This document shows, one piece after another, positions 26,967 to 40,297 of a stretch of 64,000 nucleotides of DNA. The translations under genes and the position numbers were made by a program. This DNA comes from Candidatus Sericytochromatia bacterium. Lineage in GTDB: Bacteria > Cyanobacteriota > Sericytochromatia > S15B-MN24 > UBA4093. The DNA is taken from contig JAKFCT010000014.1 of assembly GCA_036676495.1 (NCBI GenBank), positions 64,001 to 128,000 of the forward strand, read 5' to 3'. Position 1 is the first letter of the stretch. Each line of letters starts with the position of its first letter. The notes beneath the pieces are model-generated. The model did not search any database and had not been told where the DNA came from. It was given only the letters and a program-made list of their open reading frames with translations.

Positions 26967-27083
26967 CGCTCATCCTCCTACTTGTCTTGCCACTAACTTT
27001 ATGAGAAGGTTAAGACAGTCAAGTATGGGATGACCGAACGCCTTTACTTGAGGGACAGGCACGTACTAGACAATGAGGTTTGT

Positions 27084-27905
27084 ATGAAACGCCTAAACCT
27101 GGGTCTTACCGGTCTTTTGATGGGGAGCTTGCTCGTCGGTTGCGGGATGCCGTCCGACCTGATGGTTTCCCCTCGCGCGTCTCAGGGCAGCTTCAGCGCC
27201 CGCTCCGGCGCGCCTGCCGACTACTATCAGTACGCTCAAGGCAAGACCGGCATGGCCCTGCTTTCCGCGCTTCAGAACACCGTCTCCAAGCACAAGGACC
27301 TCGGCTACGGCGGGGCCCGCAACGTGATGTTCGGAGACCTCGACGACGACCTCGACAACGACACCGTCGACTGCGTCTACACCGGCATGGTCGTCAAGGG
27401 CGTCAAGGACTCCGGGACCGCCATGAGCGGTGGCCTCAACACCGAGCACTCCTGGCCCCAGAGCCTGGGCGCCACCGGCGCCGCCAAGGCCGACCTCCAC
27501 CACCTGTTCCCGACCGACGTCGAGACCAACGGAGCTCGCGGCTCCCATCCCTTCGGCGAGGTGAAGAACCCCACGCATACGTTCCCGGTCTTCGACGTCG
27601 GCGCCCGCCAGAGCATGCTCGGCGTGAACGCCGCGGGCAAGACCGTCTTCGAGCCGCGCGACCAACACAAGGGCGACCTCGCCCGGGCCCTCTTCTACTT
27701 CTACACGGTCTATGGCTTCCGCGGCGGTGCCAACCTCTCCAACTTCCGCGTGGAGGAAGAGACCCTCAAGAAGTGGCACGTGCTCGACCCGGTGGACGCC
27801 TCCGAGCGGAAGCGTAACGACGGCATCTACTCCGTTCAGGGCAACCGGAACCCGTACATCGACCACCCGGAGTACGTCCAGGCTATCGGAAACTTCCTCA
27901 ACTAA
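27084..27905 (+). CDS. Endonuclease I family extracellular nuclease (lipoprotein)
   Basis: Lipobox LVGC, NTEHSWPQS, DLHHLFP, KGDLARA, QGNRNPYIDHPE. Confidence 0.9.
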   Translation: MKRLNLGLTGLLMGSLLVGCGMPSDLMVSPRASQGSFSARSGAPADYYQYAQGKTGMALLSALQNTVSKHKDLGYGGARNVMFGDLDDDLDNDTVDCVYTGMVVKGVKDSGTAMSGGLNTEHSWPQSLGATGAAKADLHHLFPTDVETNGARGSHPFGEVKNPTHTFPVFDVGARQSMLGVNAAGKTVFEPRDQHKGDLARALFYFYTVYGFRGGANLSNFRVEEETLKKWHVLDPVDASERKRNDGIYSVQGNRNPYIDHPEYVQAIGNFLN

Positions 27906-28980
27906 CCGGATTGGAGGGCTCGGCTTCGGCCGGGCCCTCTTCGCTTGGGCGGGCCCAGTCCTCCCAGAGCACCATCCAGACCGAGAGGATGGCGGGCCCC
28001 AAGAAGAGGCCGAGCAGCCCGAAGGCGGCGAGCCCCCCGAGGAAGGCGAAGAAGACCTGCAAGTAGGGAAGGCGAGTGGTCCCACTGATGAAGAGCGGCC
28101 GCACCAGGTTGTCGATGGTGCTGATCGCAAGCACTCCCCAGACAAGGAGACCGATGCCCGGCCAGAGGTTACCCTGAAGCAAGAGCCAGCCGGCTGCCGG
28201 CACCCAGATCACGGTCGCGCCGAAGGGCAGCAACGCGAAGATGCCGGTCAGGATGCCCAAGAGCACCGGCGAGGGCACGCCGAACAGGGTGAACCCCAGA
28301 CCGGCCACCGCCCCCTGCGCGAGGGCGGCGAGGATCACTCCGAAGAAGACCGCGCGGGTGGTCTCGCGAATGGGGTACAGCAGGCGGTCGATGTCATCCC
28401 CCAGGAAGCGCCGGAGGACGGCGCGCGTCTTGAGGGCATAGGCCTCCCCGTTGCGGTAGAAGAAGAAGAGCGTGAAGAAGGCGAGCACGAGCTGGAAGAG
28501 GTTCGTGCCGGCTCCGGCGATCGCCTTGAGCCAAGGGAGCGCCTGGGCACTCACCGCTTCGCCGAGCCTTCCGGAGTCATGCAGCAAGGGGCTCAGCATG
28601 TCTTCCCAGATGACGGCCAGATTCGGGAATCGCTCCAGCAGCCCAGGGAACGGGTTTGAGGCCCACCACGCCCGGAGCGACTCCACCATGGTCGCCCCTT
28701 CGACGGTGGCGGCCCGGAGCAGCAGCGTCAGCGGCACCGCCACGACGGTGATCACCAAGAGCAGCATGACGAAGGCGGCGAAGGTCTGACGGCCCTTCAG
28801 GGCGTGAAGGAGCTTGCGGTAGCTGGGCCATGTCACGAAGGCAAAGACGAGCCCCCAGGCGAGGGCTTCCCAGAACGGGCGGATGAGCACTCCCGCCAGG
28901 ATGACGAGCAGCGTGTAGAACGTGAGCTGGGCGAAGATCTGAAGCGGTCGGTCCAATCGTCGCGGCAACATCGTAAGCAT
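27898..28980 (-). CDS. AI-2E family transporter (PerM/YdiK-like)
   Basis: Multi-TM protein with FFFYRNG, IDNLVRP, GLLGLFLGP. Confidence 0.9.
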   Translation of the reverse strand: MLTMLPRRLDRPLQIFAQLTFYTLLVILAGVLIRPFWEALAWGLVFAFVTWPSYRKLLHALKGRQTFAAFVMLLLVITVVAVPLTLLLRAATVEGATMVESLRAWWASNPFPGLLERFPNLAVIWEDMLSPLLHDSGRLGEAVSAQALPWLKAIAGAGTNLFQLVLAFFTLFFFYRNGEAYALKTRAVLRRFLGDDIDRLLYPIRETTRAVFFGVILAALAQGAVAGLGFTLFGVPSPVLLGILTGIFALLPFGATVIWVPAAGWLLLQGNLWPGIGLLVWGVLAISTIDNLVRPLFISGTTRLPYLQVFFAFLGGLAAFGLLGLFLGPAILSVWMVLWEDWARPSEEGPAEAEPSNPVS

Positions 28981-29052
28981 CCCTTTCCCAACGACATGGG
29001 GTGGCCCCGATCGAGCCACCCCATGGTACCGCATCTCTTGCTTGGAGAGCGC

Positions 29053-30372
29053 CTAGCGCACTCCCTCGGGAACGTTGAAGGAGAAGACCTTGGCGTCCTT
29101 GATGGCGTCGCGCAGCTCGCCGCGGAAGTTCGGGTGCGCGATCGAGATCAAGGCATCCGCCCGCTGGCGTAGCGACAGGCCATGCAGGTTGACCGCCCCG
29201 TACTCGGTGACGACCCAGTGGACGTGACCGCGGGTGGTGACCACGCCGGCCCCCGGCTTGAGGGTGGCGGCAATGCGCGAGACGGTTCCCTTGCAGGCGG
29301 TCGCGGGCAACGCGATGATGGGCTTGCCACCCCGCGAGAGCGCCGCCCCGCGGATGAAGTCCATCTGGCCGCCGATGCCGGAGTAGACCCGCCAGCCGAT
29401 GGAATCGGCGCAGACCTGACCGGTGATGTCGACTTCGAGGGCGCTGTTGATGGCGACCACCCGATCGTTCTTGCGGATGACGGCCGTGTCGTTGGTGTAG
29501 TCGCACGGGTGGAATTCGACGGTGGGGTTGTTGTCCACGAAGTCGAAGAGGCGCTGGGTTCCGTTGATGAAGCTGGTGACCAGGCGGCCCCGCTTGAAGT
29601 TCTTGAGGCGGTTCGTGATGACGCCTCCCTCGACCAGGGGAACGACACCGTCCGAGAACATCTCGGTATGGATGCCGAGGTCCACCTTGTTGCCCAGCTG
29701 GGCCAGGACGGCGTCGGGGATGGCGCCGATGCCCATCTGGAGGGTGGAGCCGTCCTCGATGAGATCCGCGATGATACCGCCGATGCTGCGCTCCACGTCC
29801 GAGATGACGGCGGGCTCGTGGGTCATCAGGGGGCGATCGGTGAGGATGAAGTGATCGATCTTGCTGATGTGGATGAAGCTGTTGCCGAGGGTTCGGGGCA
29901 TCTGCTTGTTGATCTCGGCGATCACGATGGCGGCCGTGTCGACCGCAGCGCGCGCGGTGTCCACCGAGGTGCCCAGGCTGCAGTAGCCATGCTCGTCGGG
30001 GTAGGAGACCTGCACGACGGCGACGTCGAGGGGAATCTGACGGGACGTGAAGAGCCAGGGGATATCGGAAAGGAAGATCGGGACGTAGTCGGCCCGGCCT
30101 TCGTTGACGGCTTGACGGAGATTGGAACCGGTGAACAGGGAGTTGGCGTGGAACTGGCCCGCCTTTTCGGGAGCCGCGTAAGGAGCGGGCCCCGCCATGT
30201 GCAGGTGATAGACTTCCACTCCGTGAAGGTCGTTGCGGGCGGCCATGGCTTCCTCGAGCGGAATCGGGGATGCACAGGCGCCATGCAGAAAGACCTTCAT
30301 GCCGCTCTTGATGGGCAGGACGGCTTCTTCAGGGGTCACGGCGCGCTGTTGCCAGGTCGTGGTGAGTCGCAT
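29053..30372 (-). CDS. Acetyl-CoA hydrolase/transferase (4-hydroxybutyrate CoA-transferase type)
   Basis: LQMGIGAIP, GIHTEM, INSALEVD, SGIGGQMDF, VVTEYG. Confidence 0.92.
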   Translation of the reverse strand: MRLTTTWQQRAVTPEEAVLPIKSGMKVFLHGACASPIPLEEAMAARNDLHGVEVYHLHMAGPAPYAAPEKAGQFHANSLFTGSNLRQAVNEGRADYVPIFLSDIPWLFTSRQIPLDVAVVQVSYPDEHGYCSLGTSVDTARAAVDTAAIVIAEINKQMPRTLGNSFIHISKIDHFILTDRPLMTHEPAVISDVERSIGGIIADLIEDGSTLQMGIGAIPDAVLAQLGNKVDLGIHTEMFSDGVVPLVEGGVITNRLKNFKRGRLVTSFINGTQRLFDFVDNNPTVEFHPCDYTNDTAVIRKNDRVVAINSALEVDITGQVCADSIGWRVYSGIGGQMDFIRGAALSRGGKPIIALPATACKGTVSRIAATLKPGAGVVTTRGHVHWVVTEYGAVNLHGLSLRQRADALISIAHPNFRGELRDAIKDAKVFSFNVPEGVR

Positions 30373-30547
30373 AGGTAGATACTCCTCGCATGTGATGGAC
30401 GCGTCAGGAGGATTCTACCGCAAGGAAAACGCGCGTGGCGTCCGCAATCTTTGCGTATGCGATGCTGAGGGGTTCTCGCGTTCTCGGGGGGCTGAAACCG
30501 AGGTAAGGGGCAGTTTAAATTTCCTCCAAGTTTTCTGCATTAGGTGC

Positions 30548-30576
30548 TTGCACAGTTCGAGCCGAGGTGTTATTGT
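30548..30576 (+). promoter_or_regulatory. Sigma70 promoter of tRNA-Arg
   Basis: TTGCAC-17 nt-TATTGT with TGn extension, 12 nt upstream of the tRNA. Confidence 0.7.
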
Positions 30577-30588
30577 AGATTGTGTTGG

Positions 30589-30662
30589 GCGGCCATAGCT
30601 CAGCTGGATAGAGCGAATGACTACGAATCATTAGGTCGGGGGTTCGAATCCCTCTGGCCGCG
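30589..30662 (+). tRNA. tRNA-Arg(ACG)
   Basis: Acceptor stem GCGGCCA/TGGCCGC, D-arm AGCTCAGCTGGATAGAGC, anticodon stem AATGA-CT ACG AA-TCATT, T-loop GGTTCGAATCC; CCA not encoded (GCCT follows). Confidence 0.97.
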
Positions 30663-30670
30663 CCTGATGG

Positions 30671-30711
30671 AGAAACTGGTTGGACCCGATGGGTCCAACC
30701 AGTTTCTTTTT
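30671..30711 (+). terminator. Intrinsic terminator after the tRNA
   Basis: agaaactggttggaccc-gat-gggtccaaccagtttct followed by a T-tract. Confidence 0.85.
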
Positions 30712-30899
30712 AATCGTATCAGCCGCAGCGGCAAGGCTATCAATGGTTGGCGGTATCCGACCGCCAGTTCTTCATCCTTCAAAGGCCAGTTAGGTCGAGA
30801 TCGCTGGCCTGGAAAACCCTGCCCCCGCGGAACCGGGAAGAAACTAGCGTTAGCAGCACTTTTCGGGATAGTGGCCCAATATGAACGCTGCCACTCGTG

Positions 30900-31931
30900 C
30901 TATTTCGCGCCACTAGCGCGGGCACATTCCAGAAGGCTACGTCGCACTGCCAGCTCATGAATCTTCCGATGGCCATGGGTTCTCAACGTTTCCCGGACCG
31001 TTTCATTCGAGAAGAGCGTATCGCACAAGTGGCATGAGTTCGCATATCGCTCAGGCAATTCCAGGTTCGGATTATGAGCCAGTACGAATTGTCGGATGCT
31101 TTCGGGTCCCTCAAGAGCGAGCCAGTTAACGATGAGGTCTTGATTGCCTTGCCGGAGAATCTCGGACAATGACTGTTCTTTGAGTGATCCAATGGTTAAC
31201 TCGGGCAATGAGCGCCGGGTAATGCCGCAGCATATCTCTACATCCATGCTGGGAGCTACAACAATGCTCTCCATGACGGAACTGCACGCGCCTACCCAAG
31301 GCTTATCTGATTCGCTGGGCATCCATTCGTCCGAGCTGACGGAGTTTGAGCCTCGACCAATGGGGACTGTGATGCCCGTGGAGATGAGGTTGCATGGGGG
31401 ATTCTGTTCGCCGGGCCGAAACTGGATGAGCTTTCTCTCCAGGGCGCTTTCCAGGTATTCGTGCGTGATGGTGCTGCTGCGAAACTGCTTGTGAGCGAGT
31501 AGGTAGGGAATTCCTAACTCCTCAGCCGCGTCCATGGCGTTCCCAATGCAATCCAGGCTCACGAATTCTTGGTGAAAGTCGTCTACGCTGAAGTTGATCT
31601 CCGTGAGACCTGCCGTGAGGAGTTCGCTCAGCCGGGCCAGGGCCACTTCCTTACTAGTCGCCCAGTATGCGCTGGTAACGATCCGGGTCATGACGTTCAG
31701 AGAGCTGCAATGTTCGACGAGTTCCACAAGCCGATTCCTGAAGAGAAACGGCTCGCCACCTGTAAAGACGACCAATTCCAGCAAACCCCAGGAATTCACC
31801 GTGTCGATCATGTCCTTCATAAAGTCCGGTGAAAGCGCTTCAGTTTCCCTGGGGCCGCAGCTCGTGCCGCAGAAATCGCATTGAAGGGGACAGCGGTAGG
31901 TGGTAACGAACGTAAGCTGAGAAATCGACAT
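30900..31931 (-). CDS. Radical SAM enzyme, YydG/EpeE-like with twitch/SPASM cysteines
   Basis: CPLQCDFC, FTGGEPFL, TRIVTSAYWA, SVDDFHQE, auxiliary C..CC..CHLC; ATG 31931 is 1 nt after the upstream stop. Confidence 0.85.
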   Translation of the reverse strand: MSISQLTFVTTYRCPLQCDFCGTSCGPRETEALSPDFMKDMIDTVNSWGLLELVVFTGGEPFLFRNRLVELVEHCSSLNVMTRIVTSAYWATSKEVALARLSELLTAGLTEINFSVDDFHQEFVSLDCIGNAMDAAEELGIPYLLAHKQFRSSTITHEYLESALERKLIQFRPGEQNPPCNLISTGITVPIGRGSNSVSSDEWMPSESDKPWVGACSSVMESIVVAPSMDVEICCGITRRSLPELTIGSLKEQSLSEILRQGNQDLIVNWLALEGPESIRQFVLAHNPNLELPERYANSCHLCDTLFSNETVRETLRTHGHRKIHELAVRRSLLECARASGAK

Positions 31932-31932
31932 G

Positions 31933-32481
31933 TTAGGCCCTACCATCAAGCAGTTTCATCACCTCTTGGCTAAGCAGCGGGCCAAAATCGAGCGTGAGGG
32001 ATAGGCTAAGTCCCCCATACGCTTTGCCTTTGCCGGCTTGCTCTGCAAAGTTCTTGGATGACATCACGTTCTTCTCCGTGGTCTTGGATTTTTCACTGCC
32101 TTTGCTCGTGTCGGTGGCTTGTTCGTACTTGACCTCTGTCTGTCGCTTATTGGAAAAGTCGGTCTGGCGGCCTTTCTCCGTCTTGCTTTCCGCAATGGTG
32201 CCGGTAATGTGGACGATCTCGTCGAGGAAGGACAGGTCACCGGGACGCGTTCGAAACAGCTCCCGAGCACGATCAAGCGTGGCGATTAGTCCCGTCAAGT
32301 CCACCGAGTCGTCAAGCCCAGAGAAGAATGCCGAGTCTTCTCTCAAAGTGGCGTGTGGAGCGGTTTCGAGCTGGCTGAAATAGTCGTCATCCCTGATCGC
32401 CTTGAGGACAATTGCCTTGATTTCCTCGAAGTCAAATTCAACTGGGATGTTGATTCGGTCCATGTTCGAGTCATCCTCCAT
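31933..32481 (-). CDS. Putative RiPP precursor (NHLP/Nif11-like leader plus S/T/K/E-rich region)
   Basis: IVLKAIRDDDYFSQLETAPHATLRE leader-like helix, polar low-complexity middle, AYGG followed by a 25-aa hydrophobic tail; coupled to the rSAM gene. Confidence 0.55.
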   Translation of the reverse strand: MEDDSNMDRINIPVEFDFEEIKAIVLKAIRDDDYFSQLETAPHATLREDSAFFSGLDDSVDLTGLIATLDRARELFRTRPGDLSFLDEIVHITGTIAESKTEKGRQTDFSNKRQTEVKYEQATDTSKGSEKSKTTEKNVMSSKNFAEQAGKGKAYGGLSLSLTLDFGPLLSQEVMKLLDGRA

Positions 32482-32794
32482 GCCATGGGGGCTCAGTAGA
32501 GCTCAGTCAGGGTGTTAGAACAGGAAACCAGGAAGCTGACTAGATGAGGGAATTAAATCGATCAATCATATAATGTACATACCCAGGGACATCAACAAGC
32601 ATCACGACTCTCGAGTCATTCGACTCAACGGGGCGACAAGAACATTGGGACTTTGAGTCGGGGCGGCCCGGGCCAAGGCATCAACATGATGGGGCTTGCT
32701 AGTTGGTATATCATGACTGGGGCGGCTCGCTCGCCGATGAGCCACTGGTGCCCTTGCCGTGATAGCGCTCCATAGCATTTGCGAGGTCGGGCAG

Positions 32795-34204
32795 ATGAGG
32801 CTACGAATCGGGAATCAACTGCGCAAGGGCAGTATTGCGCTTCTAACCTTGGCCCTGCTCTTGGTAAGCAGCACGCAGGCGATTGCAGCCGCCCCTGTCT
32901 CCAAGCCTCCCGCGACTCCCTTGGCCGGACGCACAGGCCCGATCCCTGGCCGCCATGACTACGCGCGAGCAGCCAGGGAGTTTGTCGGCTTTCTCACCGG
33001 TGCGTTCGTAGCAAAGGCTGTCGGACGGTTCGATGACAGAATGCAGGCGGCCCTACCGGAGCAGGAGCTCGCCGAGATCCTTCGGGACATAGGCAGCAAG
33101 GCGGGCCAGTTCCAGAGCATCACGGGCATCCATGTGGAGCGCATCCAACAAGGTGCGGTAGTGGATCTCGAGTGCCGCTTCGCGAAGGAATGCGTGAACA
33201 TCCGGGTCACCCTCGACGCCCGCTTGAAGGTGGCGGGCCTCTTCTTTCTCCCGGGGTGGAATCCGCCCGCCTATGCGAATCAAGCTCGCTTCAAGGAGCT
33301 TGAGCTGAGCATCGGGGATACCAGTTACCCATTGCCAGCGACCCTTTCCCTGCCCCATGGCCGTGGACCCTTCCCTGTGGTGGTTCTGGTGCATGGATCT
33401 GGGCCGCACGACCGGGATGAGACCTTGGGCCCCAACAAGCCCTTCAAAGACCTTGCCTGGGGGCTTGCGAGCCAAGGCATTGCCGCTCTACGCTTTGAGA
33501 AACGGACCGAACACTATCGGGAGAGCCTTTCGGATCGCATTCGTACCGTCAAGGAAGAGTCCATCGAGGATGTTCGGTTCGCCATCGACTCCCTGGAGAA
33601 GACGAGCGGGATCGACCGAGAGCGTATCATCGTCGTGGGCCACAGTCTTGGAGCGATGCTGGCACCCCGGATCGCGGCCGGCGATGCCCGGGTGCGTGGA
33701 ATAGCGTTGCTTGCAGGCCCTACGAGGCCTGAGGGTCAGATCCTGCTCGATCAGACTCGGTATCTGGCAAGCCTGTCCAGGGCCCCGGAGGCCGATCGTC
33801 AGGAGTGGATCCGTCAGGCGACCGAAACTGCAAGGACGCTCGATCGTGCCGACTTGAGTCCCAGCGAGATCGTGGAAGGGATTCCGGGTGAGTACTGGAT
33901 TGACATGCGAAACCAGCATGGCGTCAAGTTCATCGGAGAGCTTGAGATACCGGTCCTGGTCCTGCAGGGAGGGCGTGATTACCAAGTCACCCTGGAAGAC
34001 TTCGACGGCTGGAAGCATGCCCTGGCCCATAGAGATAAAGCCACCTTCCAGATCTATCCTGACCTCAATCACCTCTTTATGCATGGCCAGGGGCCCGCCA
34101 CCCCGGATGAATACGAGGTTCCGAATCATGTCTCTGGTCGAGTCGTGGATGACGTCGCTCAGTGGATCCGGCAGGCCTTGCCATCTCCCGCGGTCAAAAA
34201 TTAG
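32795..34204 (+). CDS. Secreted alpha/beta hydrolase with DUF3887-like N-domain
   Basis: Signal peptide (AIA-A), VHGSGPHDRDE, GHSLG nucleophile, GRDYQV Asp, LNHLF His. Confidence 0.85.
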   Translation: MRLRIGNQLRKGSIALLTLALLLVSSTQAIAAAPVSKPPATPLAGRTGPIPGRHDYARAAREFVGFLTGAFVAKAVGRFDDRMQAALPEQELAEILRDIGSKAGQFQSITGIHVERIQQGAVVDLECRFAKECVNIRVTLDARLKVAGLFFLPGWNPPAYANQARFKELELSIGDTSYPLPATLSLPHGRGPFPVVVLVHGSGPHDRDETLGPNKPFKDLAWGLASQGIAALRFEKRTEHYRESLSDRIRTVKEESIEDVRFAIDSLEKTSGIDRERIIVVGHSLGAMLAPRIAAGDARVRGIALLAGPTRPEGQILLDQTRYLASLSRAPEADRQEWIRQATETARTLDRADLSPSEIVEGIPGEYWIDMRNQHGVKFIGELEIPVLVLQGGRDYQVTLEDFDGWKHALAHRDKATFQIYPDLNHLFMHGQGPATPDEYEVPNHVSGRVVDDVAQWIRQALPSPAVKN

Positions 34205-34285
34205 GCTATTCGTTCACGCTGAAAAGCTTGATTACCCAAGTTCGAAGGTCGTCCCTCCGCCCCCCTGATGAAAGCAAAGGCCTAG

Positions 34286-34774
34286 CTACTTGAAAGCCTG
34301 CTCAAACTCGCCGAGCAAGGTTATGAGCTGGGCCTGGTGGTCCTGAGGGATTTTGTCGATTAACTGCTTCAGGAAGGCCAGATGGGATGGGAAGGTTTTC
34401 TCGTAGACGGCCTGGCCTTCGGGGGTCAAGGTGACCACCACCTGACGCGCATCCCACTCGCCCTTGCAACGTTTGACCAGGCCCCTCGCCTCGAGCCGGT
34501 CCAGCACGGGCTTGAGCGTCCCCCGGGTGATGAGGGTTCGTTCGGCGAGCTCTGACACCGTCATCCCCTGGGTATCACCCAGCGTGGTAATCACGTCGAA
34601 TTGCGGAAGGGTGAGGTCCAGGGTCTCGACGTGACGACTGGCCACGCGCTCGACCTGACGGCTGCATGACATGAGGGCGCGAAAGGCGGGAAGAAGCGAT
34701 GCTTCCTGGGGGGCTTGGGGCTGGCCTGATCCCTTCACGCGGAGACCTCCTCTTCCGATCGGGATGCGGTCCAT
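34286..34774 (-). CDS. MarR family transcriptional regulator
   Basis: LTLPQFDVI, ELAERT, LDRLEARGLVKR, DARQVVVTLTPEG. Confidence 0.9.
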   Translation of the reverse strand: MDRIPIGRGGLRVKGSGQPQAPQEASLLPAFRALMSCSRQVERVASRHVETLDLTLPQFDVITTLGDTQGMTVSELAERTLITRGTLKPVLDRLEARGLVKRCKGEWDARQVVVTLTPEGQAVYEKTFPSHLAFLKQLIDKIPQDHQAQLITLLGEFEQAFK

Positions 34775-34988
34775 GACGGGTCTCGCATGGACCTTTGACC
34801 CCTTGCGCTTTCCCTAAGCGATAGCGGCAGCGTCGAAACAACATAGGACTAGCTAGACATATTGTCAACGGAAGGCAGTACCTCCGGTGTCGAATTCTCT
34901 CGCTCACTTGTTGCTTCACGGCTCAAGCTTCGTTAGTTTTGTCTACCTAGACATATCTCCCCAGTCATCGCGCAAGAAAGGAGCCTTT

Positions 34989-36539
34989 GTGTACGGAGAG
35001 CGAGGGATGGAAGCGGGGCCGCGTTTCCAGGAAGTGGTCTGCTTGTACGAGGAGGGAGCCGCTCTGCCTTGCGATGAGCAGTACCGAAGCGTGGTCGAAA
35101 GTGCTCCAGATTCGATCTATGTCCATAACGCCGAAGGCACGCTCGTCGACGTGAACGAGACAGCATGCAAGGTCCTGGGGTATGAGCGTGACGAGCTCTT
35201 GACCATGTCCGTTTTCGACATCGAGACGGGGCTCTCGCCCGAGTTTCTAAAGGACATCTGGGCCCGCGCCCTGCAAGGGCGTTCCCTCACCGTTGAAGGG
35301 AGCGAGCGTCGGAAAGACGGAAGCACTTTGCCGGTGGAAGTCCGTTTCAGCCCCTTGAAACGGAGAGGCCAGTTGCTCCTGATCGCCTTCGTGCGCGACA
35401 TCAGCGAGCGAAAGCAGGCTGAGACCCAGCTCCGGGACAGCGAGGCCCGCTATCGACAGCTTGCGGCCATCGTGGAGGCCTCGGCTGACAGCATCATCAG
35501 CCTCGATCCCGAGCTGAATACCATCACCTACTGGAACCGTGGTGCGGAGAGGATGTGGGGCTGGACCCGCGAGGAGGTCATGGGGAAGCCGTTTGGGATG
35601 AGCGTCTCGCCCGACTGCCAGCAAGAGGTTGACGGGTTCAAGGAGTTGATCCGTAACGGCGTGCCTCTGGAGCCGTACGAACGGGTGGGGACTCGCAAGG
35701 ACGGGAGGCGCCTCGACGTCTCGGTATGCGTCTTTCCCGTCAAGGACGAGGATGGCCGCATCATCAGCTACACGGCCATTCAGCGGGATGTCACCGAGTT
35801 GAAGAAAATCAGGGAAGAGGCCCTTCTCGACAAGGCGGAACTTGAAAAAACCCAGGAGTTGAATCGCCTGAAGGATCACTTCCTTTCAACCGTCTCCCAC
35901 GAGATCAAGACACCGCTTTCGCTGATCACGGGCTATCTCGAATTGCTCGAGGACCTCGGACAAACGGACGAACTCATGGCGGGGATGAAGGACGGAACCC
36001 GGCGCCTACGCGAACATATCGACAATATTCTCGATTACTGCGCGCTCGCGAGCGGATCGCTTCCCCTTTACAAGTCCGAGTTCTGCCCCTCGGAAATCGC
36101 CAGTAACGTTGCCGCCATCATGGAACGGGACCTCGAAACCAAGAAGATCGACTTGGTCGTCGATATGGATCCGGATCTCCCCGTCATCCTGGGGGATACG
36201 CGGCGCATCACCCAGGTTCACCTCGCCTTGCTCGAAAATGCGGCAAAGCACACGCCTCCCGGGGGAAAAATCGGGATGCGGGTTTCGTCCGTCCGCCAAC
36301 AGGTGCGCGTCGATGTCTGGGACACGGGCCCCGGCATTCCCGAGGACGAGATCCCCAAGATTTGGGAAGCCTTCAGCCAGTTGGAAATCGGTGACGCCTA
36401 CCGACGCGGAGGCCTCGGCCTAGGGCTGTGCATCGTGAAAAGCCTGGCCGAGCTACACGACGGCAGGGTTGAGATCGATAGCCGATCCGGGGATGGCACC
36501 ACGTTTTCACTCTTCTTGCCGAACGGATTGCCGAACTAG
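34989..36539 (+). CDS. PAS-PAS sensor histidine kinase
   Basis: Two PAS/PAC domains (RKDG..DISERK; RKDG..DVTE), SHEIKTP, ENAAKHT, DTGPGI, GLGLGL; start approximate (GTG with AAGGAG). Confidence 0.9.
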   Translation: MYGERGMEAGPRFQEVVCLYEEGAALPCDEQYRSVVESAPDSIYVHNAEGTLVDVNETACKVLGYERDELLTMSVFDIETGLSPEFLKDIWARALQGRSLTVEGSERRKDGSTLPVEVRFSPLKRRGQLLLIAFVRDISERKQAETQLRDSEARYRQLAAIVEASADSIISLDPELNTITYWNRGAERMWGWTREEVMGKPFGMSVSPDCQQEVDGFKELIRNGVPLEPYERVGTRKDGRRLDVSVCVFPVKDEDGRIISYTAIQRDVTELKKIREEALLDKAELEKTQELNRLKDHFLSTVSHEIKTPLSLITGYLELLEDLGQTDELMAGMKDGTRRLREHIDNILDYCALASGSLPLYKSEFCPSEIASNVAAIMERDLETKKIDLVVDMDPDLPVILGDTRRITQVHLALLENAAKHTPPGGKIGMRVSSVRQQVRVDVWDTGPGIPEDEIPKIWEAFSQLEIGDAYRRGGLGLGLCIVKSLAELHDGRVEIDSRSGDGTTFSLFLPNGLPN

Positions 36540-36570
36540 CTCCTGCTGGGATCGGCGCGCCCCTCGCCGC

Positions 36571-37170
36571 TCACCTGGGTGCGGCACTCTCGGCGCTCAT
36601 GGCCGCGCGGGTTGCGACGCGGTCGCTGCCGCTGGCGAGATGATCCTCCTCCCACATCAGCTCGATGTCCAACTGGATATCGACCCGATCATCCACCAGG
36701 ACTCCCCCGCTCTCCAGGGCCACGTTCCAGAGCATTCCATAGTCCTTGCGGCTCAGGGTGGCGCTGCCGCTGAAGCCGGTGCGCAAGATGCCGTCGGGGT
36801 CCTTGAAGGGGCCTCCGGCGAAGGTCCCATCGACCACGATTTCTTGGGTGACCCCGTGGATCGTGAGTTGTCCGTAGACGCGGAACCGGTTCTCGCCCTG
36901 GGTCTCGATCTTGGTGCTCTTGTACAGGATGAGGGGAAAGCGCTCGATATTGAAGAATGCCGCAGAGCGCAGGTGCTCGTCACGCTTGGCGACCCGGGTG
37001 TCGATGCTGGCGACGTTGATCTCACCGACGAACGAGGAGCTCGCCAGATCGTCGAAGTTCAGGTCGATGATGCCGTAGTACTCTTGGAAGGTGCCCCGGA
37101 TCGTCATGAACATCATATGCTTGATGGTGAAGCCGACGTAGCTGTGTCGTTGATCAATGACCCACGTCAT
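36571..37170 (-). CDS. yceI: YceI family polyisoprenoid-binding protein
   Basis: WVIDQRHS..F.IKHM, SIDT...RDEHLRS..FF, GQLTIHGVT, RKDYG. Confidence 0.9.
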   Translation of the reverse strand: MTWVIDQRHSYVGFTIKHMMFMTIRGTFQEYYGIIDLNFDDLASSSFVGEINVASIDTRVAKRDEHLRSAAFFNIERFPLILYKSTKIETQGENRFRVYGQLTIHGVTQEIVVDGTFAGGPFKDPDGILRTGFSGSATLSRKDYGMLWNVALESGGVLVDDRVDIQLDIELMWEEDHLASGSDRVATRAAMSAESAAPR

Positions 37171-37280
37171 CCGAACCTCCTTGCGTGCATGAGGAGGGTT
37201 GTCGTTCACCCGATGATAGCAAGGCCCATCCCCACGTCAACGAGCAGGCATGCCAGGCAAACGGCGGTGACGCGTGGCCG

Positions 37281-37613
37281 TCAGTTCCCTCGCGGGGCGA
37301 AGGCGATGATGCTCATCCCCAAAAGGCTGACCGCGACTCCCAGCAGGTCCCAGCGATCGGGGGTTTGATGCTCGACCGCCCACATCCAGAGCAGGGCGGA
37401 GGCGACGTAGACGCCCCCGTAGGCGGCGTAAGTCCGGCCGGCGCCGGTGGGGTGAAGCGTCAAGAGCCAGGCGAATAAACCAAGGCTGAGCGCCGCCGGC
37501 AGCAACAACCAGATGGACTTGCCATGACGAAGCCACAGGAACGGCAGGTAGCAGCCGATGATCTCGGCGCCTGCGGTGAGCACAAAGAGGGTGATCGTTT
37601 TCAAGGGACTCAT
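37281..37613 (-). CDS. ynfA: YnfA family (UPF0060) small membrane protein
   Basis: [28 protein letters not shown]. Confidence 0.92.
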
Positions 37614-37723
37614 CCGAGGGTTTCCTGCATCCTTCCGTCAGCCTCGCGGCGCATCACGCGTGACTCCCATGGGGCAAGCGCACGGTGCATGGTAGGCCAT
37701 GTCGGGAAGCGAGGCAAAGGCCC

Positions 37724-38686
37724 TCAGCCCAGCTCGCTGCGCAGCGCCGCCTCGAGCTCCGGATGGAGGAAGTCGAACCCGCTATCCAGGAGTTTACGAG
37801 GCAACACCCGGGCGCCTTCGAGCAACAAGGCCTCTCCGAGCTCGCCCAGTAGCAGCCGAACCCCTGCTTCGGGCAAGGGAAAGAGCGTCGGGCGGCCGAG
37901 CACCCGGCCCAAGGCGCGGGTGAACTCGGCATTCGTGACGGGGTTTGGAGCCGTGACGTTGACCGCTCCCTCCAGCGCCTCGGTGAAGATCGCATGCTGG
38001 TAGGCCCCGATGAGATCGGCGAGTCCGATCCAGCTCATCCACTGACGCCCGCTGCCGATAACTCCCCCCACGCCCAGCTTGAAGGGGATCAGCATTTGCG
38101 CGAGCGCTCCCCCGCGAGGGGAGAGGACGATGCCGGTGCGCATGTGAACGACGCGGACTCCCGCCTGACGGGCAGGCTCTGTGGCCGCCTCCCAGTCGCG
38201 GCAAACGTCGGCGAGAAATCCCGAGCCGGGGGCACTTTCCTCCGTGAGGATCTCGTCCCCGCGATCGCCGTAGTACCCGATCCCCGACGCCGAAACCAGG
38301 ACCCGAGGGGGCTGACGCAACCTGGCGAGTGATTCGGCAATGAGCCGGGTTCCCTTCACCCGGCTTTCCAGAATCGCCGCCTTGCGCTCAGGGGTCCAGC
38401 GCCCCCCGGCGATGCTCTCGCCCGCGAGGTGCACGACCACATCCACTCCCTCCAGGCGCTCGAGTTCGATCTCCGAACTCCTCGGATTCCAGTAGATCTC
38501 ATGGGCCTGTGGCGATCGCCGGACCAGCGGCAGAATCTCATGACCCCCGCTCGCAAGGAAGTCGGAAAGCTCCGCCCCGATGAACCCCGAGGCCCCAGTG
38601 ATGGCGATCCGCTGCCGCCCCACGGAGGCGACGCGCTCATGCCGGGAGTCGGCCTCACGGCTCCGAGACGGTCGATTTCGAAACAT
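37724..38686 (-). CDS. TIGR01777 family NAD-dependent epimerase/oxidoreductase
   Basis: ITGASGFIG, HLAGESI..RW, SASGIGYYG, GSGRQWMSWI, APNPVTN. Confidence 0.92.
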   Translation of the reverse strand: MFRNRPSRSREADSRHERVASVGRQRIAITGASGFIGAELSDFLASGGHEILPLVRRSPQAHEIYWNPRSSEIELERLEGVDVVVHLAGESIAGGRWTPERKAAILESRVKGTRLIAESLARLRQPPRVLVSASGIGYYGDRGDEILTEESAPGSGFLADVCRDWEAATEPARQAGVRVVHMRTGIVLSPRGGALAQMLIPFKLGVGGVIGSGRQWMSWIGLADLIGAYQHAIFTEALEGAVNVTAPNPVTNAEFTRALGRVLGRPTLFPLPEAGVRLLLGELGEALLLEGARVLPRKLLDSGFDFLHPELEAALRSELG

Positions 38687-38739
38687 GGCAATCCTCCTGC
38701 GGGGACTCAACGGCGCACGGTCATGCGATCGGAACGACC

Positions 38740-39063
38740 CTAATGATAATGGAGCGCGAGCCAAACCGTCGGCTGCTTCGCGTCCGTCCATTCCACCCGG
38801 TGGCGGCAACGCGAGGGGATCCAGACATAATCTCCCGGCGCGAGCACCTGCTCATCGTCCTCCCCCTCGAAGCGAAGCGCCGCCCGTCCCGATAGTAGCA
38901 GGACCCATTCACTCCGTTCCTGCTGCAGCCACTCCCCGGGGGGCGTCGCTTGGCCCGTCGAGACGATGCGCTCCAGCGTCATCCCGTCGTGCTCCAGCAG
39001 CGGCTCGAAGACCTCTGAGTCACGATCGGTCGGCAATTCCACGAAAAGGTTTCGAGCGTTCAA
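38740..39063 (-). CDS. Cupin domain protein
   Basis: TTG start overlapping the tetR stop; ERIVSTGQATP, EWVLLLSG, HRVEWT, WLALHY. Confidence 0.85.
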   Translation of the reverse strand: MNARNLFVELPTDRDSEVFEPLLEHDGMTLERIVSTGQATPPGEWLQQERSEWVLLLSGRAALRFEGEDDEQVLAPGDYVWIPSRCRHRVEWTDAKQPTVWLALHYH

Positions 39064-39671
39064 TGACCTTCCTCCCGAGCGTACGGAGCCATGCCCTGCA
39101 GGCGCCATGTCCATCCTGCGGCTTCTTCGGCCGTGAAGTACTGCGTATGGTCCAGCCACCAGACCATCGCTCCCAACAGGCCGCTCGCCAAGAGGCGAGC
39201 CGTCAGGGTTGGCGGCACCCCCGGCGTGTTGCGTGTGAGGGGCACCGTCGCGGGAAGCCGCGTCACATAGGTGCCGATCATCTGCTCCAGGTACGCGATC
39301 ATCTGCTCCCGGAAGAACGCGCTTCCCCCCGAGCCCAAGACCCTTCGGAAAAAGTCGCCTTCCTGTTCGACGCGGATGAAGAGGGCGACCAGGAAGGAGG
39401 GCGGCAACGCCGTGCGGAAATCCGGAATCTCGGACACGAATTGGGCCGCTTCGACGCTCATGAGGGCGACCAGGTCCTCCACGATGCTCGCCAGCATCGC
39501 CTCCTTATCCCGGAAATGCTGATAGAAGGTTGCTCGGTTCACTCCGGCCTGGGCCGTCAAGTCCGAGATCGTGACGGCTTCATAAGCGCGCTCTTGCATG
39601 AGCATCTTCATAGCGTTCTGTAGGGCGAGACGGGTCCGACGGACCCGTGGATCGGCTAGCTTCTTCGACAT
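39060..39671 (-). CDS. TetR/AcrR family regulator divergent from the pch-like operon
   Basis: DPRVRRTR, VTISDLTAQAGVNRATFYQHFRDK. Confidence 0.92.
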   Translation of the reverse strand: MSKKLADPRVRRTRLALQNAMKMLMQERAYEAVTISDLTAQAGVNRATFYQHFRDKEAMLASIVEDLVALMSVEAAQFVSEIPDFRTALPPSFLVALFIRVEQEGDFFRRVLGSGGSAFFREQMIAYLEQMIGTYVTRLPATVPLTRNTPGVPPTLTARLLASGLLGAMVWWLDHTQYFTAEEAAGWTWRLQGMAPYAREEGH

Positions 39672-39754
39672 AATCAACACATCCGTAGTTTACCGCAACC
39701 AATATTAAACCCATTATACGCTGCGGTTTTCTACGGATCGAGGCATGATTAAAA

Positions 39755-39767
39755 CAACAGATTGTTG
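39755..39767. promoter_or_regulatory. Candidate TetR operator
   Basis: CAACA-gat-TGTTG palindrome in the AT-rich divergent promoter region. Confidence 0.45.
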
Positions 39768-39856
39768 GTTTACTATCCCCGCCACGGGTGGCGACTTTAC
39801 CCCGGGGGGAAAGCTCTTTACCGCGTTCTCCTCATGACGATGGAAAGGAAGCGTGA

Positions 39857-40297
39857 ATGATCGCTCCGAACTGGAAGACCAAGGCCGCGCTGGGCATGCT
39901 CTTACTGGGCGTCCTGGGAGGCGCCGGCTGCAGTTCCGACTCGACGGAGTCGAAGGCCCCGGAGATACCCGCCGGCATCATCCACCACGATGCGCCCCCC
40001 GCGGCCGAAATCGAGGGCGAGAGAATCAAGCAAAAGCAGGCCTTGGGCGCCGGTCAGTACGAAAGCCCCAAGCAGATGTATCAGACCACGTGCGCCCAGT
40101 GCCATGACACCGGCGTGGGCCCCGTCCTCTTCGGCCGTTCGCTGGACGCGAACTACATCGCCTTCACGATGCGCCACGGACGGAACGGCATGCCCGCCTT
40201 CATGCCTAGCGATTACTCGGATTCCGATGTCCAGCAACTGGCCACGTGGATCGGTAAGCAGCCCAAGCCCGAACTGGCCGAAGGAGGTGCCCAGTGA
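39857..40297 (+). CDS. pchC: Cytochrome c subunit (PchC-like), lipoprotein
   Basis: Lipobox GAGC, CAQCH, GVGPVL.GR, RHGRNGMPAF. Confidence 0.75.
   Translation: MIAPNWKTKAALGMLLLGVLGGAGCSSDSTESKAPEIPAGIIHHDAPPAAEIEGERIKQKQALGAGQYESPKQMYQTTCAQCHDTGVGPVLFGRSLDANYIAFTMRHGRNGMPAFMPSDYSDSDVQQLATWIGKQPKPELAEGGAQ

What the first reader, a model, noticed from the sequence alone, without database searches (positions are those of the whole stretch)
30900..32481. Candidate new RiPP: NHLP/Nif11-leader-like precursor coupled to a YydG/EpeE-like radical SAM enzyme
Seen: a two-gene unit with TAA-C-ATG coupling. The enzyme has CxxxCxxC, TRIVTSAYWA, SVDDFH and auxiliary C/CC/CxxC cysteines. The 182-aa partner begins with a helix IVLKAIRDDDYFSQLETAPHATL. 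Known: this rSAM signature resembles the YydG/EpeE-type twitch/SPASM peptide epimerases, and 'kA..D..f...L...P...L' is the hallmark of NHLP/Nif11-type RiPP leaders. Inference: a minimal RiPP system, possibly a poly-epimerised peptide, with an unusually long precursor and no adjacent protease or ABC exporter.
Basis: partly seen in the sequence, partly recalled or inferred. Interest (0 to 1): 0.85.

Follow-up and report, generated by a model that had tools for sequence, protein, structure and literature searches.

The report
EpeE-like radical SAM with long precursor
A two-gene cassette pairs an enzyme built like the known peptide epimerase EpeE with a 180-residue partner protein that looks like its substrate, and the same pair recurs across many bacterial and archaeal phyla without having been described.

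Summary
On the minus strand a 182-aa ORF (31933-32481) ends TAA-C-ATG into a 343-aa radical SAM gene (30900-31931).

The enzyme is an EpeE/YydG-type radical SAM:
- YydG is its best NCBIfam hit (84 bits, cutoff 300).
- The AlphaFold model matches EpeE crystal structures over the full length (TM 0.75-0.82).
- All five C-terminal cysteines are conserved, including the CC pair whose second Cys matches EpeE's H-atom donor C223.

The partner has no hit of its own in Pfam or NCBIfam. It does belong to a family of 152 representatives, and 30 of 33 close rSAM homologue loci carry a full-length member next to the enzyme. No other neighbour is conserved. Its N-terminal helices resemble NHLP-clan leaders only below threshold. 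Its middle is polar and predicted disordered. Its C-terminus carries an invariant Pro-Leu motif. A complex prediction supports binding (0.83; best control 0.00).

The cassette sits in a low-GC, strain-specific patch beside tRNA-Arg and was not found in 40 relatives.

Best reading: a RiPP-like system that installs D-residues, a hybrid of the epipeptide and proteusin types. The chemistry and the modified sites are untested. I rate it a new variant of a known kind.

The parts
31933..32481 (-). Partner or precursor gene. 182 aa from the ATG at 32481; the start is more likely M7 at 32463 (176 aa). Architecture: N-terminal strand motif (D8-R-I-N-I-P-V), helical NHLP-clan-like domain (about residues 18-110), polar disordered middle (about 102-153), then the conserved C-terminal G-P168-L-L motif with a helix (172-181).
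   Evidence: ORF and sequence. Family alignments. AF2 model. Family size. Sub-threshold NHLP-clan similarity.
30900..31931 (-). EpeE/YydG-type radical SAM enzyme, 343 aa. Radical SAM cluster Cys C14/C18/C21. C-terminal single-cluster (twitch/T-SPASM-like) domain with C216, C234, C235, C300 and C303.
31929..31935 (-). TAA-C-ATG junction: the partner's stop codon lies one base before the enzyme's start codon, an arrangement that suggests translational coupling.
   Evidence: sequence read directly.
32482..32758 (-). 277-nt upstream intergenic region shared with the divergent hydrolase gene. It is the presumed promoter region, but no sigma-70 consensus match was found.
30589..30664 (+). tRNA-Arg(ACG) bordering the cassette. 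This is a variable-region hotspot within the genus.
30792..34290. Strain-specific segment holding the cassette and an alpha/beta hydrolase gene (32759-34204, + strand). It is absent between the same flanks in a same-genus genome. The cassette part (30400-32800) has GC 0.52-0.56; within the 28000-40000 profile, 28000-30399 reads 0.62-0.67 and most of 32800-37199 reads 0.55-0.65.

Best explanation
This is a minimal, horizontally mobile, RiPP-like two-gene system.

The roughly 180-aa protein is the cognate substrate of the downstream EpeE-type radical SAM enzyme. Inferred mechanism:
- Its N-terminal strand and helical, NHLP-clan-like domain dock on the enzyme's C-terminal domain.
- Its conserved C-terminal Pro-Leu segment also contacts the enzyme.
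- The enzyme cleaves SAM at its CxxxCxxC cluster and abstracts a C-alpha hydrogen from one or more residues of the partner.
- The invariant Cys235, the equivalent of EpeE Cys223, returns a hydrogen from the opposite face, giving D-residues.

Shown here: gene pairing, family conservation, the enzyme's fold and cysteine pattern, and predicted binding. Inferred: that the partner is the substrate, that the chemistry is epimerisation, and which residues are modified. Candidate sites are the invariant P168-L169-(I/L) motif or the polar middle region.
For: (1) Enzyme identity.
- The best NCBIfam family is TIGR04078 YydG (1.2e-23).
- The family profile matches EpeE chains at E 3.6e-24 over query 9-311.
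- The AF2 model (pLDDT 90.3) has EpeE chains as its top 9 Foldseek hits (E 2.5e-19 to 1.1e-17, TMq 0.75-0.77, TMt 0.79-0.82). The next hit is SkfB (E 1.7e-9, TMq 0.52).

(2) Catalytic pattern.
- The five C-terminal Cys line up with EpeE chain C231/C247/C248/C314/C317, which are native C206/C222/C223/C289/C292 (the first is offset by two positions in that alignment).
- C223 is EpeE's H-atom donor (passages of PMC13012085 and PMC8326336).
- The CC pair is kept in 24 of 24 close homologues and in 69 of 69 distinct relatives.

(3) Pairing.
- Of the 33 loci other than the window whose rSAM scores above 340 bits, 30 hold a full-length partner next to it: 27 upstream and 3 downstream.
- L007 keeps only a 44-aa remnant. 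L025 and L029 have none.
- Five of these partners (L006, L012, L021, L022, L056) were not in the model that found them.
- A model-free BLAST clustering groups the upstream ORFs of 21 loci.
- No other ORF of 80 aa or more and no small ORF is conserved beyond close kin.

(4) The partner family is real: 152 representatives at E <= 1e-3 and 81 at <= 1e-10 among 1.84 billion proteins.

(5) Complex prediction.
- ipSAE 0.83 (runs 0.80, 0.83, 0.83), best of 3 controls 0.00.
- The mark was reached by 58 of 80 solved complexes and 2 of 110 mismatched pairs.
- Runs agree in at least 48% of contacts; partner pLDDT is at least 54.
- My own alignments and riding ligands were used, so the calibration holds only roughly.
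- The interface uses partner residues 7-16, 18-26, 46-72, 83-90 and 166-181.

(6) Chemistry exclusions. The window's partner has no Cys and no Trp. 27 of 64 family members lack Cys and 15 of 64 lack Trp. Thioether and Lys-Trp cross-links therefore cannot be the family's reaction.

(7) Context in a sister clade. Relatives at 28-33% identity sit between partners with alternating Asn/Ala/Val repeats and a methyltransferase. The methyltransferase's best solved relative is AerE (E 2e-16). AerE methylates only epimerised D-Asn (PMC9060474 passages).
Against: - No modification has been observed, and no RNA or protein data exist.
- The enzyme scores far below the YydG equivalog cutoff (84 vs 300 bits).
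- The window's partner hits no NHLP or Nif11 model.
- The core is Lys/Thr/Ser/Glu-rich, unlike the Val/Ile sites of EpeX or the alternating cores of proteusins.
- The listed confident contacts of the complex do not include the radical SAM cluster residues or C235, so the model does not place a residue in the active site.
- The position aligned to EpeE D210 (a residue that was mutated for structure 8ai6) is not a conserved acid: S, Q, R, K or E across 69 sequences. That stretch is poorly aligned, and I could not read the paper that explains D210.
- No leader peptidase or exporter is conserved, which is atypical for a secreted RiPP.
Confidence: 0.55

Rival explanations
1. The same cognate pair, but the enzyme performs another radical reaction on the partner instead of epimerisation. 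Examples: a C-C or C-O cross-link involving the conserved aromatic positions, a hydroxylation, or backbone cleavage or splicing.
For: The partner family keeps aromatic residues at two middle positions (86% and 91%) and a Thr/Ser at a third (67%). The enzyme is only about 19% identical to EpeE and scores below the YydG cutoff. SPASM/twitch radical SAM enzymes with similar folds catalyse many different peptide reactions (review PMC8326336, passages). The EpeE D210 position is not conserved.
Against: The free Cys next to the cluster ligand, which is EpeE's H-donor, is kept in 69 of 69 relatives. Cross-linking enzymes have no need for it. The only invariant partner residue is a proline. Cys and Trp are dispensable. 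The sister clade is linked to a D-Asn-type methyltransferase.
Confidence: 0.25
2. The 182-aa protein is not the substrate. It is an accessory subunit (scaffold, chaperone or regulator) of a radical SAM enzyme that acts on another peptide, protein or small molecule encoded elsewhere.
For: The partner is far longer than usual precursors. Both of its ends contact the enzyme in the model, while the active site is not among the confident contacts. No protease or exporter is conserved.
Against: No third conserved gene or small ORF accompanies the pair in 34 loci. The cassette moves between phyla as a two-gene unit. Its closest characterised relative acts on the peptide encoded beside it (PMC13012085). 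Two loci carry two partner copies per enzyme (L002, L031), which is typical of precursors.
Confidence: 0.12
3. The partner ORF is a chance or decaying reading frame, and the radical SAM gene stands alone.
For: The word-based search found no homologue. There is no Pfam or NCBIfam hit. The protein atlas gave no usable hit.
Against: A profile search finds 152 relatives. The window's protein scores 102.7 bits (E 1.8e-24) against that profile. Position and orientation are conserved in 30 of 33 loci. The AF2 N-domain reaches pLDDT above 90.
Confidence: 0.02

Closest known systems
EpeE (YydG) with EpeX (YydF): the epipeptide system of Bacillus subtilis
   Same: Same enzyme architecture and fold. It has an N-terminal CxxxCxxC radical SAM cluster, no RRE domain, and one auxiliary cluster in a truncated SPASM (T-SPASM) domain. 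It shares the C/CC/CxxC pattern, including the H-donor Cys, and the shared motifs around (V/I)(T/S)(N/S)(A/G)(F/Y)W and SxD(D/E)xH. The precursor is encoded immediately upstream.
   Different: About 19% identity; 84 bits against a 300-bit family cutoff. EpeX is a short peptide with a 32-aa leader, epimerised at Val and Ile, cleaved and exported, and epipeptides are described as restricted to Bacillota (PMC8326336 and PMC13012085 passages). Here the partner has 176-182 aa, a folded helical N-domain and a polar core. No peptidase or ABC genes are conserved. The hosts span Pseudomonadota, Thermodesulfobacteriota, Planctomycetota, Nitrospirota, Acidobacteriota, Chlorobiota, Chloroflexota, Armatimonadota and two archaeal phyla.
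Proteusins: PoyD/AerD-type radical SAM epimerases with NHLP-leader precursors
   Same: A long, structured, nitrile-hydratase-like leader in front of the modified region, and radical C-alpha epimerisation using an enzyme Cys (PMC8326336 passages). The sister clade of the window's enzyme is even linked to AerE-like methyltransferases and Asn-repeat cores.
   Different: [quoted passage not shown] The partner here fails the NHLP model cutoffs, lacks the VAGG/GG site, is predicted all-helical, and has an extra conserved C-terminal motif.
Os1348 family NHLP-clan protein (NF038399; PDB 6lk7)
   Same: The model hit by most partner-family members (7 of 27, best E 1.3e-5). It is also the top, though non-significant, Foldseek hit of the partner model (E 0.97, TMt 0.44, 70 columns). 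The similarity covers the helix-loop-helix at partner residues about 17-53.
   Different: Os1348 is a protein of about 78 residues (chain length). All scores are below the 40-bit cutoff. I saw only the search listing and the start of the abstract of PMC7726476.

Membership tests
YydG/EpeE radical SAM peptide epimerase (TIGR04078 equivalog) | Score at or above the curated family cutoff (300 bits) | tested here: not met
   84.1 bits, E 1.2e-23. It is the best of 49 NCBIfam families, but far below the cutoff.
YydG/EpeE radical SAM peptide epimerase (TIGR04078 equivalog) | N-terminal CxxxCxxC radical SAM cluster with no preceding RRE domain | tested here: met
   C14/C18/C21. Pfam Radical_SAM covers residues 9-123. 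The motif is kept in 68 of 69 relatives; the remaining row has a gap.
YydG/EpeE radical SAM peptide epimerase (TIGR04078 equivalog) | Single auxiliary [4Fe-4S] cluster in a truncated SPASM (T-SPASM) domain: four ligand Cys | tested here: met
   C216, C234, C300 and C303 align with EpeE native C206, C222, C289 and C292 (the first is offset by 2 positions). They are invariant in 24 of 24. Pfam SPASM is only sub-threshold (16 vs 21.5 bits), as expected for a truncated domain. Cluster binding itself was not measured, and the assignment of ligand Cys in EpeE is inferred from the pattern because I could not read the structure paper.
YydG/EpeE radical SAM peptide epimerase (TIGR04078 equivalog) | Free Cys acting as H-atom donor (EpeE Cys223), adjacent to a cluster ligand | tested here: met
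   C235 aligns with EpeE chain C248, which is native C223. It is kept in 69 of 69 relatives. Its role in EpeE comes from PMC13012085 and PMC8326336 passages.
YydG/EpeE radical SAM peptide epimerase (TIGR04078 equivalog) | Full-length structural similarity to EpeE | tested here: met
   Foldseek ranks 1-9 are all EpeE chains, E 2.5e-19 to 1.1e-17, TMq 0.75-0.77, TMt 0.79-0.82, 336-342 columns. The model has pLDDT 90.3.
YydG/EpeE radical SAM peptide epimerase (TIGR04078 equivalog) | EpeE Asp210 equivalent | tested here: inconclusive
   The aligned region has no conserved acid: S 14, Q 13, R 11, K 11, E 6 of 69 at the window's E221 column. The alignment there is weak, and the role of D210 is known to me only from a PDB title.
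Epipeptide gene cluster (epeXEPAB / yydFGHIJ) | Short precursor, dedicated peptidase and ABC transporter genes, Bacillota host | tested here: not met
   The partner has 182 aa. No conserved third gene appears in 45 loci clustered. Hosts lie outside Bacillota.
Epipeptide / radical SAM epimerase | L-to-D epimerisation of the substrate | not testable with these tools
   Needs co-expression and mass spectrometry or chiral analysis.
NHLP leader peptide family (TIGR03793) and NHLP clan (TIGR04509, NF038399) | HMM score above the curated cutoff | tested here: not met
   Window partner: 0 NCBIfam families at E <= 1. Among 27 members at E <= 0.1: NF038399 hits 7, TIGR04509 hits 5, TIGR03793 hits 2. Among the 10 members shown in detail, the best is 25.1 bits vs a 40-bit cutoff and 19.6 vs 34.
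NHLP leader peptide family (TIGR03793) and NHLP clan (TIGR04509, NF038399) | Profile-level homology to NHLP leaders | tested here: inconclusive
   hhalign of 64 partners against 26 NHLP precursors taken from TIGR03793 hits: probability 50.9%, P 1.5e-4, 72 columns. Controls: reversed NHLP 0.64, rSAM alignment 0.19. The partner profile against PDB gives 6lk7 at E 0.16 and SonA at E 0.99.
NHLP leader peptide family (TIGR03793) and NHLP clan (TIGR04509, NF038399) | [quoted passage not shown] | tested here: not met
   The AF2 model has helices 18-30, 32-40 and 42-49, then further helices and no strands. The family has FExIF(G) where NHLPs have ELExVAGG, and the window reads LDEIVHITG. The canonical NHLP structure is taken from PMC12537861 passages.
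Nif11 leader family | Match to a Nif11-type leader model | tested here: not met
   No Nif11 model appears among the families hit at E <= 0.1 by any of 27 members, or at E <= 1 by the window's partner. I assume NCBIfam holds such a model (recalled, not checked).
Proteusin (PoyD-type) epimerase | Radical SAM cluster only, plus a C-terminal RRE | tested here: not met
   The enzyme has auxiliary-cluster Cys and an EpeE fold. The distinction is taken from the PMC8326336 passage.

The most novel reading that the evidence does not exclude
The roughly 180-aa partner is never cut or exported. An EpeE-type enzyme writes one or a few D-residues into a full-length cytoplasmic protein, at the invariant Pro-Leu motif or in the disordered polar segment. 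That would make this a self-contained protein-stereochemistry switch that travels as a two-gene unit among bacteria and archaea. With its sister clades, it would also mean that EpeE-type epimerases, not only PoyD-type ones, underlie a large hidden set of D-amino-acid-bearing ribosomal products.
Probability: 0.15. Interest if true: 0.85.

Novelty: new variant of a known kind. Interest (0 to 1): 0.6.

Why it matters
Only two radical SAM routes to D-residues in ribosomal peptides are characterised (PMC8326336 passages):
- PoyD-type enzymes acting on NHLP-leader proteusins.
- EpeE acting on short epipeptides, which are described as confined to Bacillota (PMC13012085 passage).

This cassette joins an EpeE-type enzyme to a long precursor with a proteusin-like leader. 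It is spread across at least ten phyla, including archaea. It also needs just two genes, which makes it an easy target for heterologous expression.

If epimerisation is confirmed, three things follow:
- The known range of EpeE chemistry widens.
- There is a new leader-enzyme recognition mode to study.
- It raises the question of what a polar, protein-sized product bearing D-residues does in anaerobic sediment and soil microbes.

The sister clades noted in passing would link EpeE-type enzymes to polytheonamide-like channel peptides in gut Collinsella and Ruminococcus and in Vibrio.

Tried and rejected
- The word-based homologue search with the partner found only itself (1 of 167 candidates). 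The profile search later showed this was a sensitivity limit.
- The protein atlas gave no usable hit for the partner.
- PADLOC: no defence family for the partner or for two relatives. The enzyme hit only generic viperin-type radical SAM models (E 4e-8). I dropped the defence-system idea.
- The promoter/terminator scan found 0 promoter-like sites and 2 terminator-like sites on the wrong strand, no more than in shuffles. It is uninformative.
- Direct repeats of the tRNA 3' end were sought as att sites inside the window. None was found.
- No integrase appeared among the ORFs examined in 27000-37000.
- Small conserved ORFs (20-79 aa) within 2 kb of 34 cassettes: clusters were found only among three near-identical genomes. 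I therefore rejected a hidden short precursor.
- Sequencing runs: no RNA holder is listed. One DNA holder may be the source of the window. I did not lay reads.
- Foldseek of the partner model against PDB gave no hit at E <= 1e-3.
- I considered the neighbouring alpha/beta hydrolase as a leader peptidase. I rejected it as a family feature because it is not conserved. It cannot be excluded for this genome.
- Literature: searches listed no paper that pairs an EpeE/YydG-type enzyme with NHLP-like long precursors. These searches cover only the held library. The EpeE structure paper (Kubiak et al.) is not held, and supplements are closed. A sequence-similarity network in that paper or in Hudson et al. 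2019 could already show this cluster.
- The careful tree was not finished in the time allowed. The tree cited is the quick one, with SH-aLRT support only.
Full report
**The observation**

The minus strand of the window holds a 182-aa ORF (32481..31933). Its TAA stop is followed by one C and then the ATG of a 343-aa ORF (31931..30900).
- CPLQCDFC, the CxxxCxxC motif
- TRIVTSAYWA
- SVDDFH
- C216, C234-C235 and C300-x-x-C303

A GGAGG lies 11 nt before the second ATG (32463). This fits where related proteins begin, so the partner probably has 176 aa.

**The enzyme**

Sequence evidence:
- Pfam finds Radical_SAM (E 1.7e-14) and a sub-threshold SPASM hit (16 vs 21.5 bits).
- The best of 49 NCBIfam families is the YydG epimerase model. 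It scores 84 bits against a cutoff of 300, so the enzyme is not a member of that equivalog.
- A profile of 24 homologues matches EpeE (YydG) crystal-structure chains at E 3.6e-24 over positions 9-311. The next family, MoaA, scores 4e-7.

Structure evidence:
- An AlphaFold model (pLDDT 90.3) has EpeE chains as its nine best Foldseek hits (E 2.5e-19 to 1.1e-17, TMq 0.75-0.77, TMt 0.79-0.82).
- SkfB follows at E 1.7e-9 and TMq 0.52.

Cysteine pattern:
- The five C-terminal cysteines line up with EpeE's native C206, C222, C223, C289 and C292 (the first is offset by two positions in that alignment).
- EpeE carries one auxiliary cluster in a truncated SPASM domain and uses Cys223 as the hydrogen donor that completes epimerisation (passages of PMC13012085 and PMC8326336).
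- The CC pair is kept in 24 of 24 close homologues and in 69 of 69 distinct relatives.
- The position aligned to EpeE D210 is not a conserved acid. That stretch is poorly aligned, and I could not read the paper that explains D210.

**The partner**

Alone, it matches nothing:
- no NCBIfam family at E <= 1;
- only a sub-threshold BORG_CEP hit in Pfam;
- no word-based homologue;
- no atlas hit.

Context solves this. I fetched 79 loci encoding rSAM relatives. The ORF just upstream of the close relatives is a 160-270-aa protein with the same layout. A profile of 27 of these finds 152 representatives at E <= 1e-3 and 81 at <= 1e-10 among 1.84 billion proteins. The window's protein scores 102.7 bits.

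In 64 aligned members the layout is:
- An N-terminal R-I-x-x-x-(I/V) strand motif (R 80%, I 84%).
- A helical region with D31, P42 (91%) and G50 (86%).
- An F-E-x-I-F motif.
- A spacer of 41-138 residues (median 74) with two aromatic positions (86% and 91%).
- An invariant proline followed by L (88%) and I/L/V.
- An amphipathic tail.

The AlphaFold model is confident for residues about 20-90, helical throughout, and below pLDDT 50 for 102-153. The window's middle region is 17% Lys, 12% Thr, 12% Ser and 11% Glu.

**Is the N-domain an NHLP or Nif11 leader?**

Only loosely.
- Of 27 members, 7 hit the Os1348-family NHLP-clan model, 5 the NHLP-related RiPP peptide model and 2 TIGR03793. In the 10 members I saw in detail, all hits are below cutoff and all fall on residues about 17-53.
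- Profile against profile, the 64 partners match 26 NHLP precursors that I extracted from TIGR03793 hits. Probability is 50.9% and P 1.5e-4. The controls give 0.64 (reversed) and 0.19 (the rSAM alignment).
- The best, non-significant Foldseek hit of the partner model is the Os1348 structure.
- Canonical NHLPs are a three-helix bundle plus a beta-hairpin and end in a GG site (PMC12537861 and PMC4289311 passages). The model here has no strands and there is no GG site.

I read this as a distant, clan-level resemblance and not as membership.

**Pairing**

- Among 34 loci whose rSAM scores above 340 bits against the family profile (33 plus the window), 30 of the 33 have a full-length partner beside the enzyme: 27 upstream and 3 downstream.
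- L007 keeps a 44-aa remnant. L025 and L029 have none. L002 and L031 have two copies.
- Five of these partners were not in the model that found them.
- A model-free BLAST clustering links the upstream ORFs of 21 loci.
- No other gene of 80 aa or more and no small ORF is shared beyond near-identical genomes.
- A complex prediction with my alignments, two 4Fe-4S clusters and SAM scored 0.83 (runs 0.80, 0.83, 0.83), with the best of three controls at 0.00. That mark was reached by 58 of 80 solved complexes and 2 of 110 mismatched pairs. Runs agree in at least 48% of contacts, and partner pLDDT is at least 54. The setting differs from the calibration, so the counts hold only roughly.
- The confident interface joins partner residues 7-16 to enzyme residues 264-269 and 313-331. 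It also joins the helical domain and residues 166-181 to enzyme residues 1-3, 44-50 and 215-221. The catalytic residues are not in that list.

**Genomic setting**

- The cassette is single-copy in its genome.
- It was not found in 40 relatives at E <= 1e-20, of which 23 are high-quality genomes.
- It lies in a 2.4-kb patch of GC 0.52-0.56; the stretch from 28000 to 30399 reads 0.62-0.67 and most of 32800-37199 reads 0.55-0.65.
- It sits right after tRNA-Arg.
- In one same-genus genome the left flank ends at window position 30791 and the right flank resumes at 34291. There, 32 kb of other DNA and a 59-bp repeat of the tRNA end lie between the flanks. Another same-genus genome has a different gene after the tRNA.
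- In the quick tree, the window's enzyme groups with sequences from a Methanotrichaceae archaeon, an Acidobacteriaceae bacterium and an Armatimonadota bacterium (SH-aLRT 92). Phyla are mixed throughout the clade.

All this points to horizontal spread of the two-gene unit.

**Mechanism**

The best-supported reading is that the partner is the enzyme's substrate and that the enzyme epimerises it in the way EpeE does.
- Thioether and Lys-Trp cross-links are excluded as the family reaction. The window's partner has neither Cys nor Trp, and 27 of 64 members lack Cys while 15 of 64 lack Trp.
- Support for epimerisation comes from the H-donor Cys and from a sister clade (23 rows, SH-aLRT 99).
- In that clade the partners have the same N-terminal helix motif, but carry alternating Asn/Ala/Val repeats.
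- There, a methyltransferase follows the enzyme. The one I tested (L045) has AerE as its closest solved relative (E 2e-16; PDB ids confirmed). AerE methylates only epimerised D-Asn (PMC9060474 passages).
- In the Vibrio ruber locus, no second radical SAM was found among the six large ORFs scanned.

Which residues of the window's partner are modified is unknown. The invariant P-L-(I/L) motif and the polar middle are the candidates.

**Comparison and novelty**

The system works like an epipeptide or proteusin pathway but is a member of neither.
- The enzyme is EpeE-type, not PoyD-type.
- The precursor is long with a structured leader, not EpeX-like.
- The cluster lacks the peptidase and transporter genes.
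- The hosts are not Bacillota.

My literature searches listed no description of it.

I rate it a new variant of a known kind, with interest 0.6. Confidence that the two proteins are a cognate pair is about 0.85. Confidence in the full statement, including epimerisation, is 0.55.

Noticed in passing
L045:4185-7093; L041:1872-5290; L049:4983-6637; L062:4216-7167: Relatives of the enzyme at 28-33% identity (Vibrio ruber, Ruminococcus, Myxococcales, Collinsella) sit beside partners with the same N-terminal helix motif. In three of these loci the enzyme lies between the partner and a methyltransferase; in L049 the partner lies downstream and I saw no methyltransferase. The middle of these partners is an alternating Asn/Ala/Val repeat, and the C-terminus hits DUF5969 (tested for L045 and L062). 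The downstream methyltransferase tested (L045) has AerE, the D-Asn N-methyltransferase of aeronamide, as its best solved relative (E 2e-16). This looks like polytheonamide-type chemistry built on an EpeE-type epimerase instead of a PoyD-type one.
   Followed up: partly
L032:3895-4977; L039:3961-4977; L040:4114-4809; L055:4335-4967: A third clade of the enzyme (11 rows, SH-aLRT 100; Nitrososphaera, Acidobacteriota, Ignavibacteriota, Bacteroidota) has yet other partners of 210-360 aa. They carry the F..NP helix motif and long hydrophobic or alternating acidic stretches.
   Followed up: no
L037:265-813: In a Eubacteriales MAG, the ORF upstream of the enzyme is made of tandem Ser/Gly/Thr-rich repeats of about 24 residues.
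   Followed up: no
L012:468-785 and L012:2389-2958: In a Desulfobulbaceae MAG the partner lies downstream of the enzyme. A Cys-rich 105-aa ORF with several CxxC motifs lies upstream and may be a second precursor type.
   Followed up: no
L051:4359-5901: In one Bathyarchaeota MAG both genes of the cassette are split into pieces: the partner into two ORFs and the enzyme into two matches. This suggests decay or assembly errors.
   Followed up: no
window 30589-34290 and L115/L120 (G002 contig C22): The tRNA-Arg site is a hotspot. A same-genus genome has about 32 kb between the tRNA and the MarR gene, bounded by a 59-bp repeat of the tRNA 3' end (95% identity). The window has only 3.6 kb there and no such repeat.
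   Followed up: partly
window 32759-34204 (+): A 481-aa alpha/beta hydrolase is transcribed divergently from the partner gene. It has a hydrophobic N-terminus, a DUF3887 domain and weak S9/S33 peptidase-type hits. It belongs to the strain-specific segment but is not found at other cassettes.
   Followed up: partly
search result (P0239, P0248): Two longer proteins (519 and 406 aa) match the partner profile in 3 and 4 separate stretches, all on the leader helix region. They may be tandem leader-like repeats.
   Followed up: no
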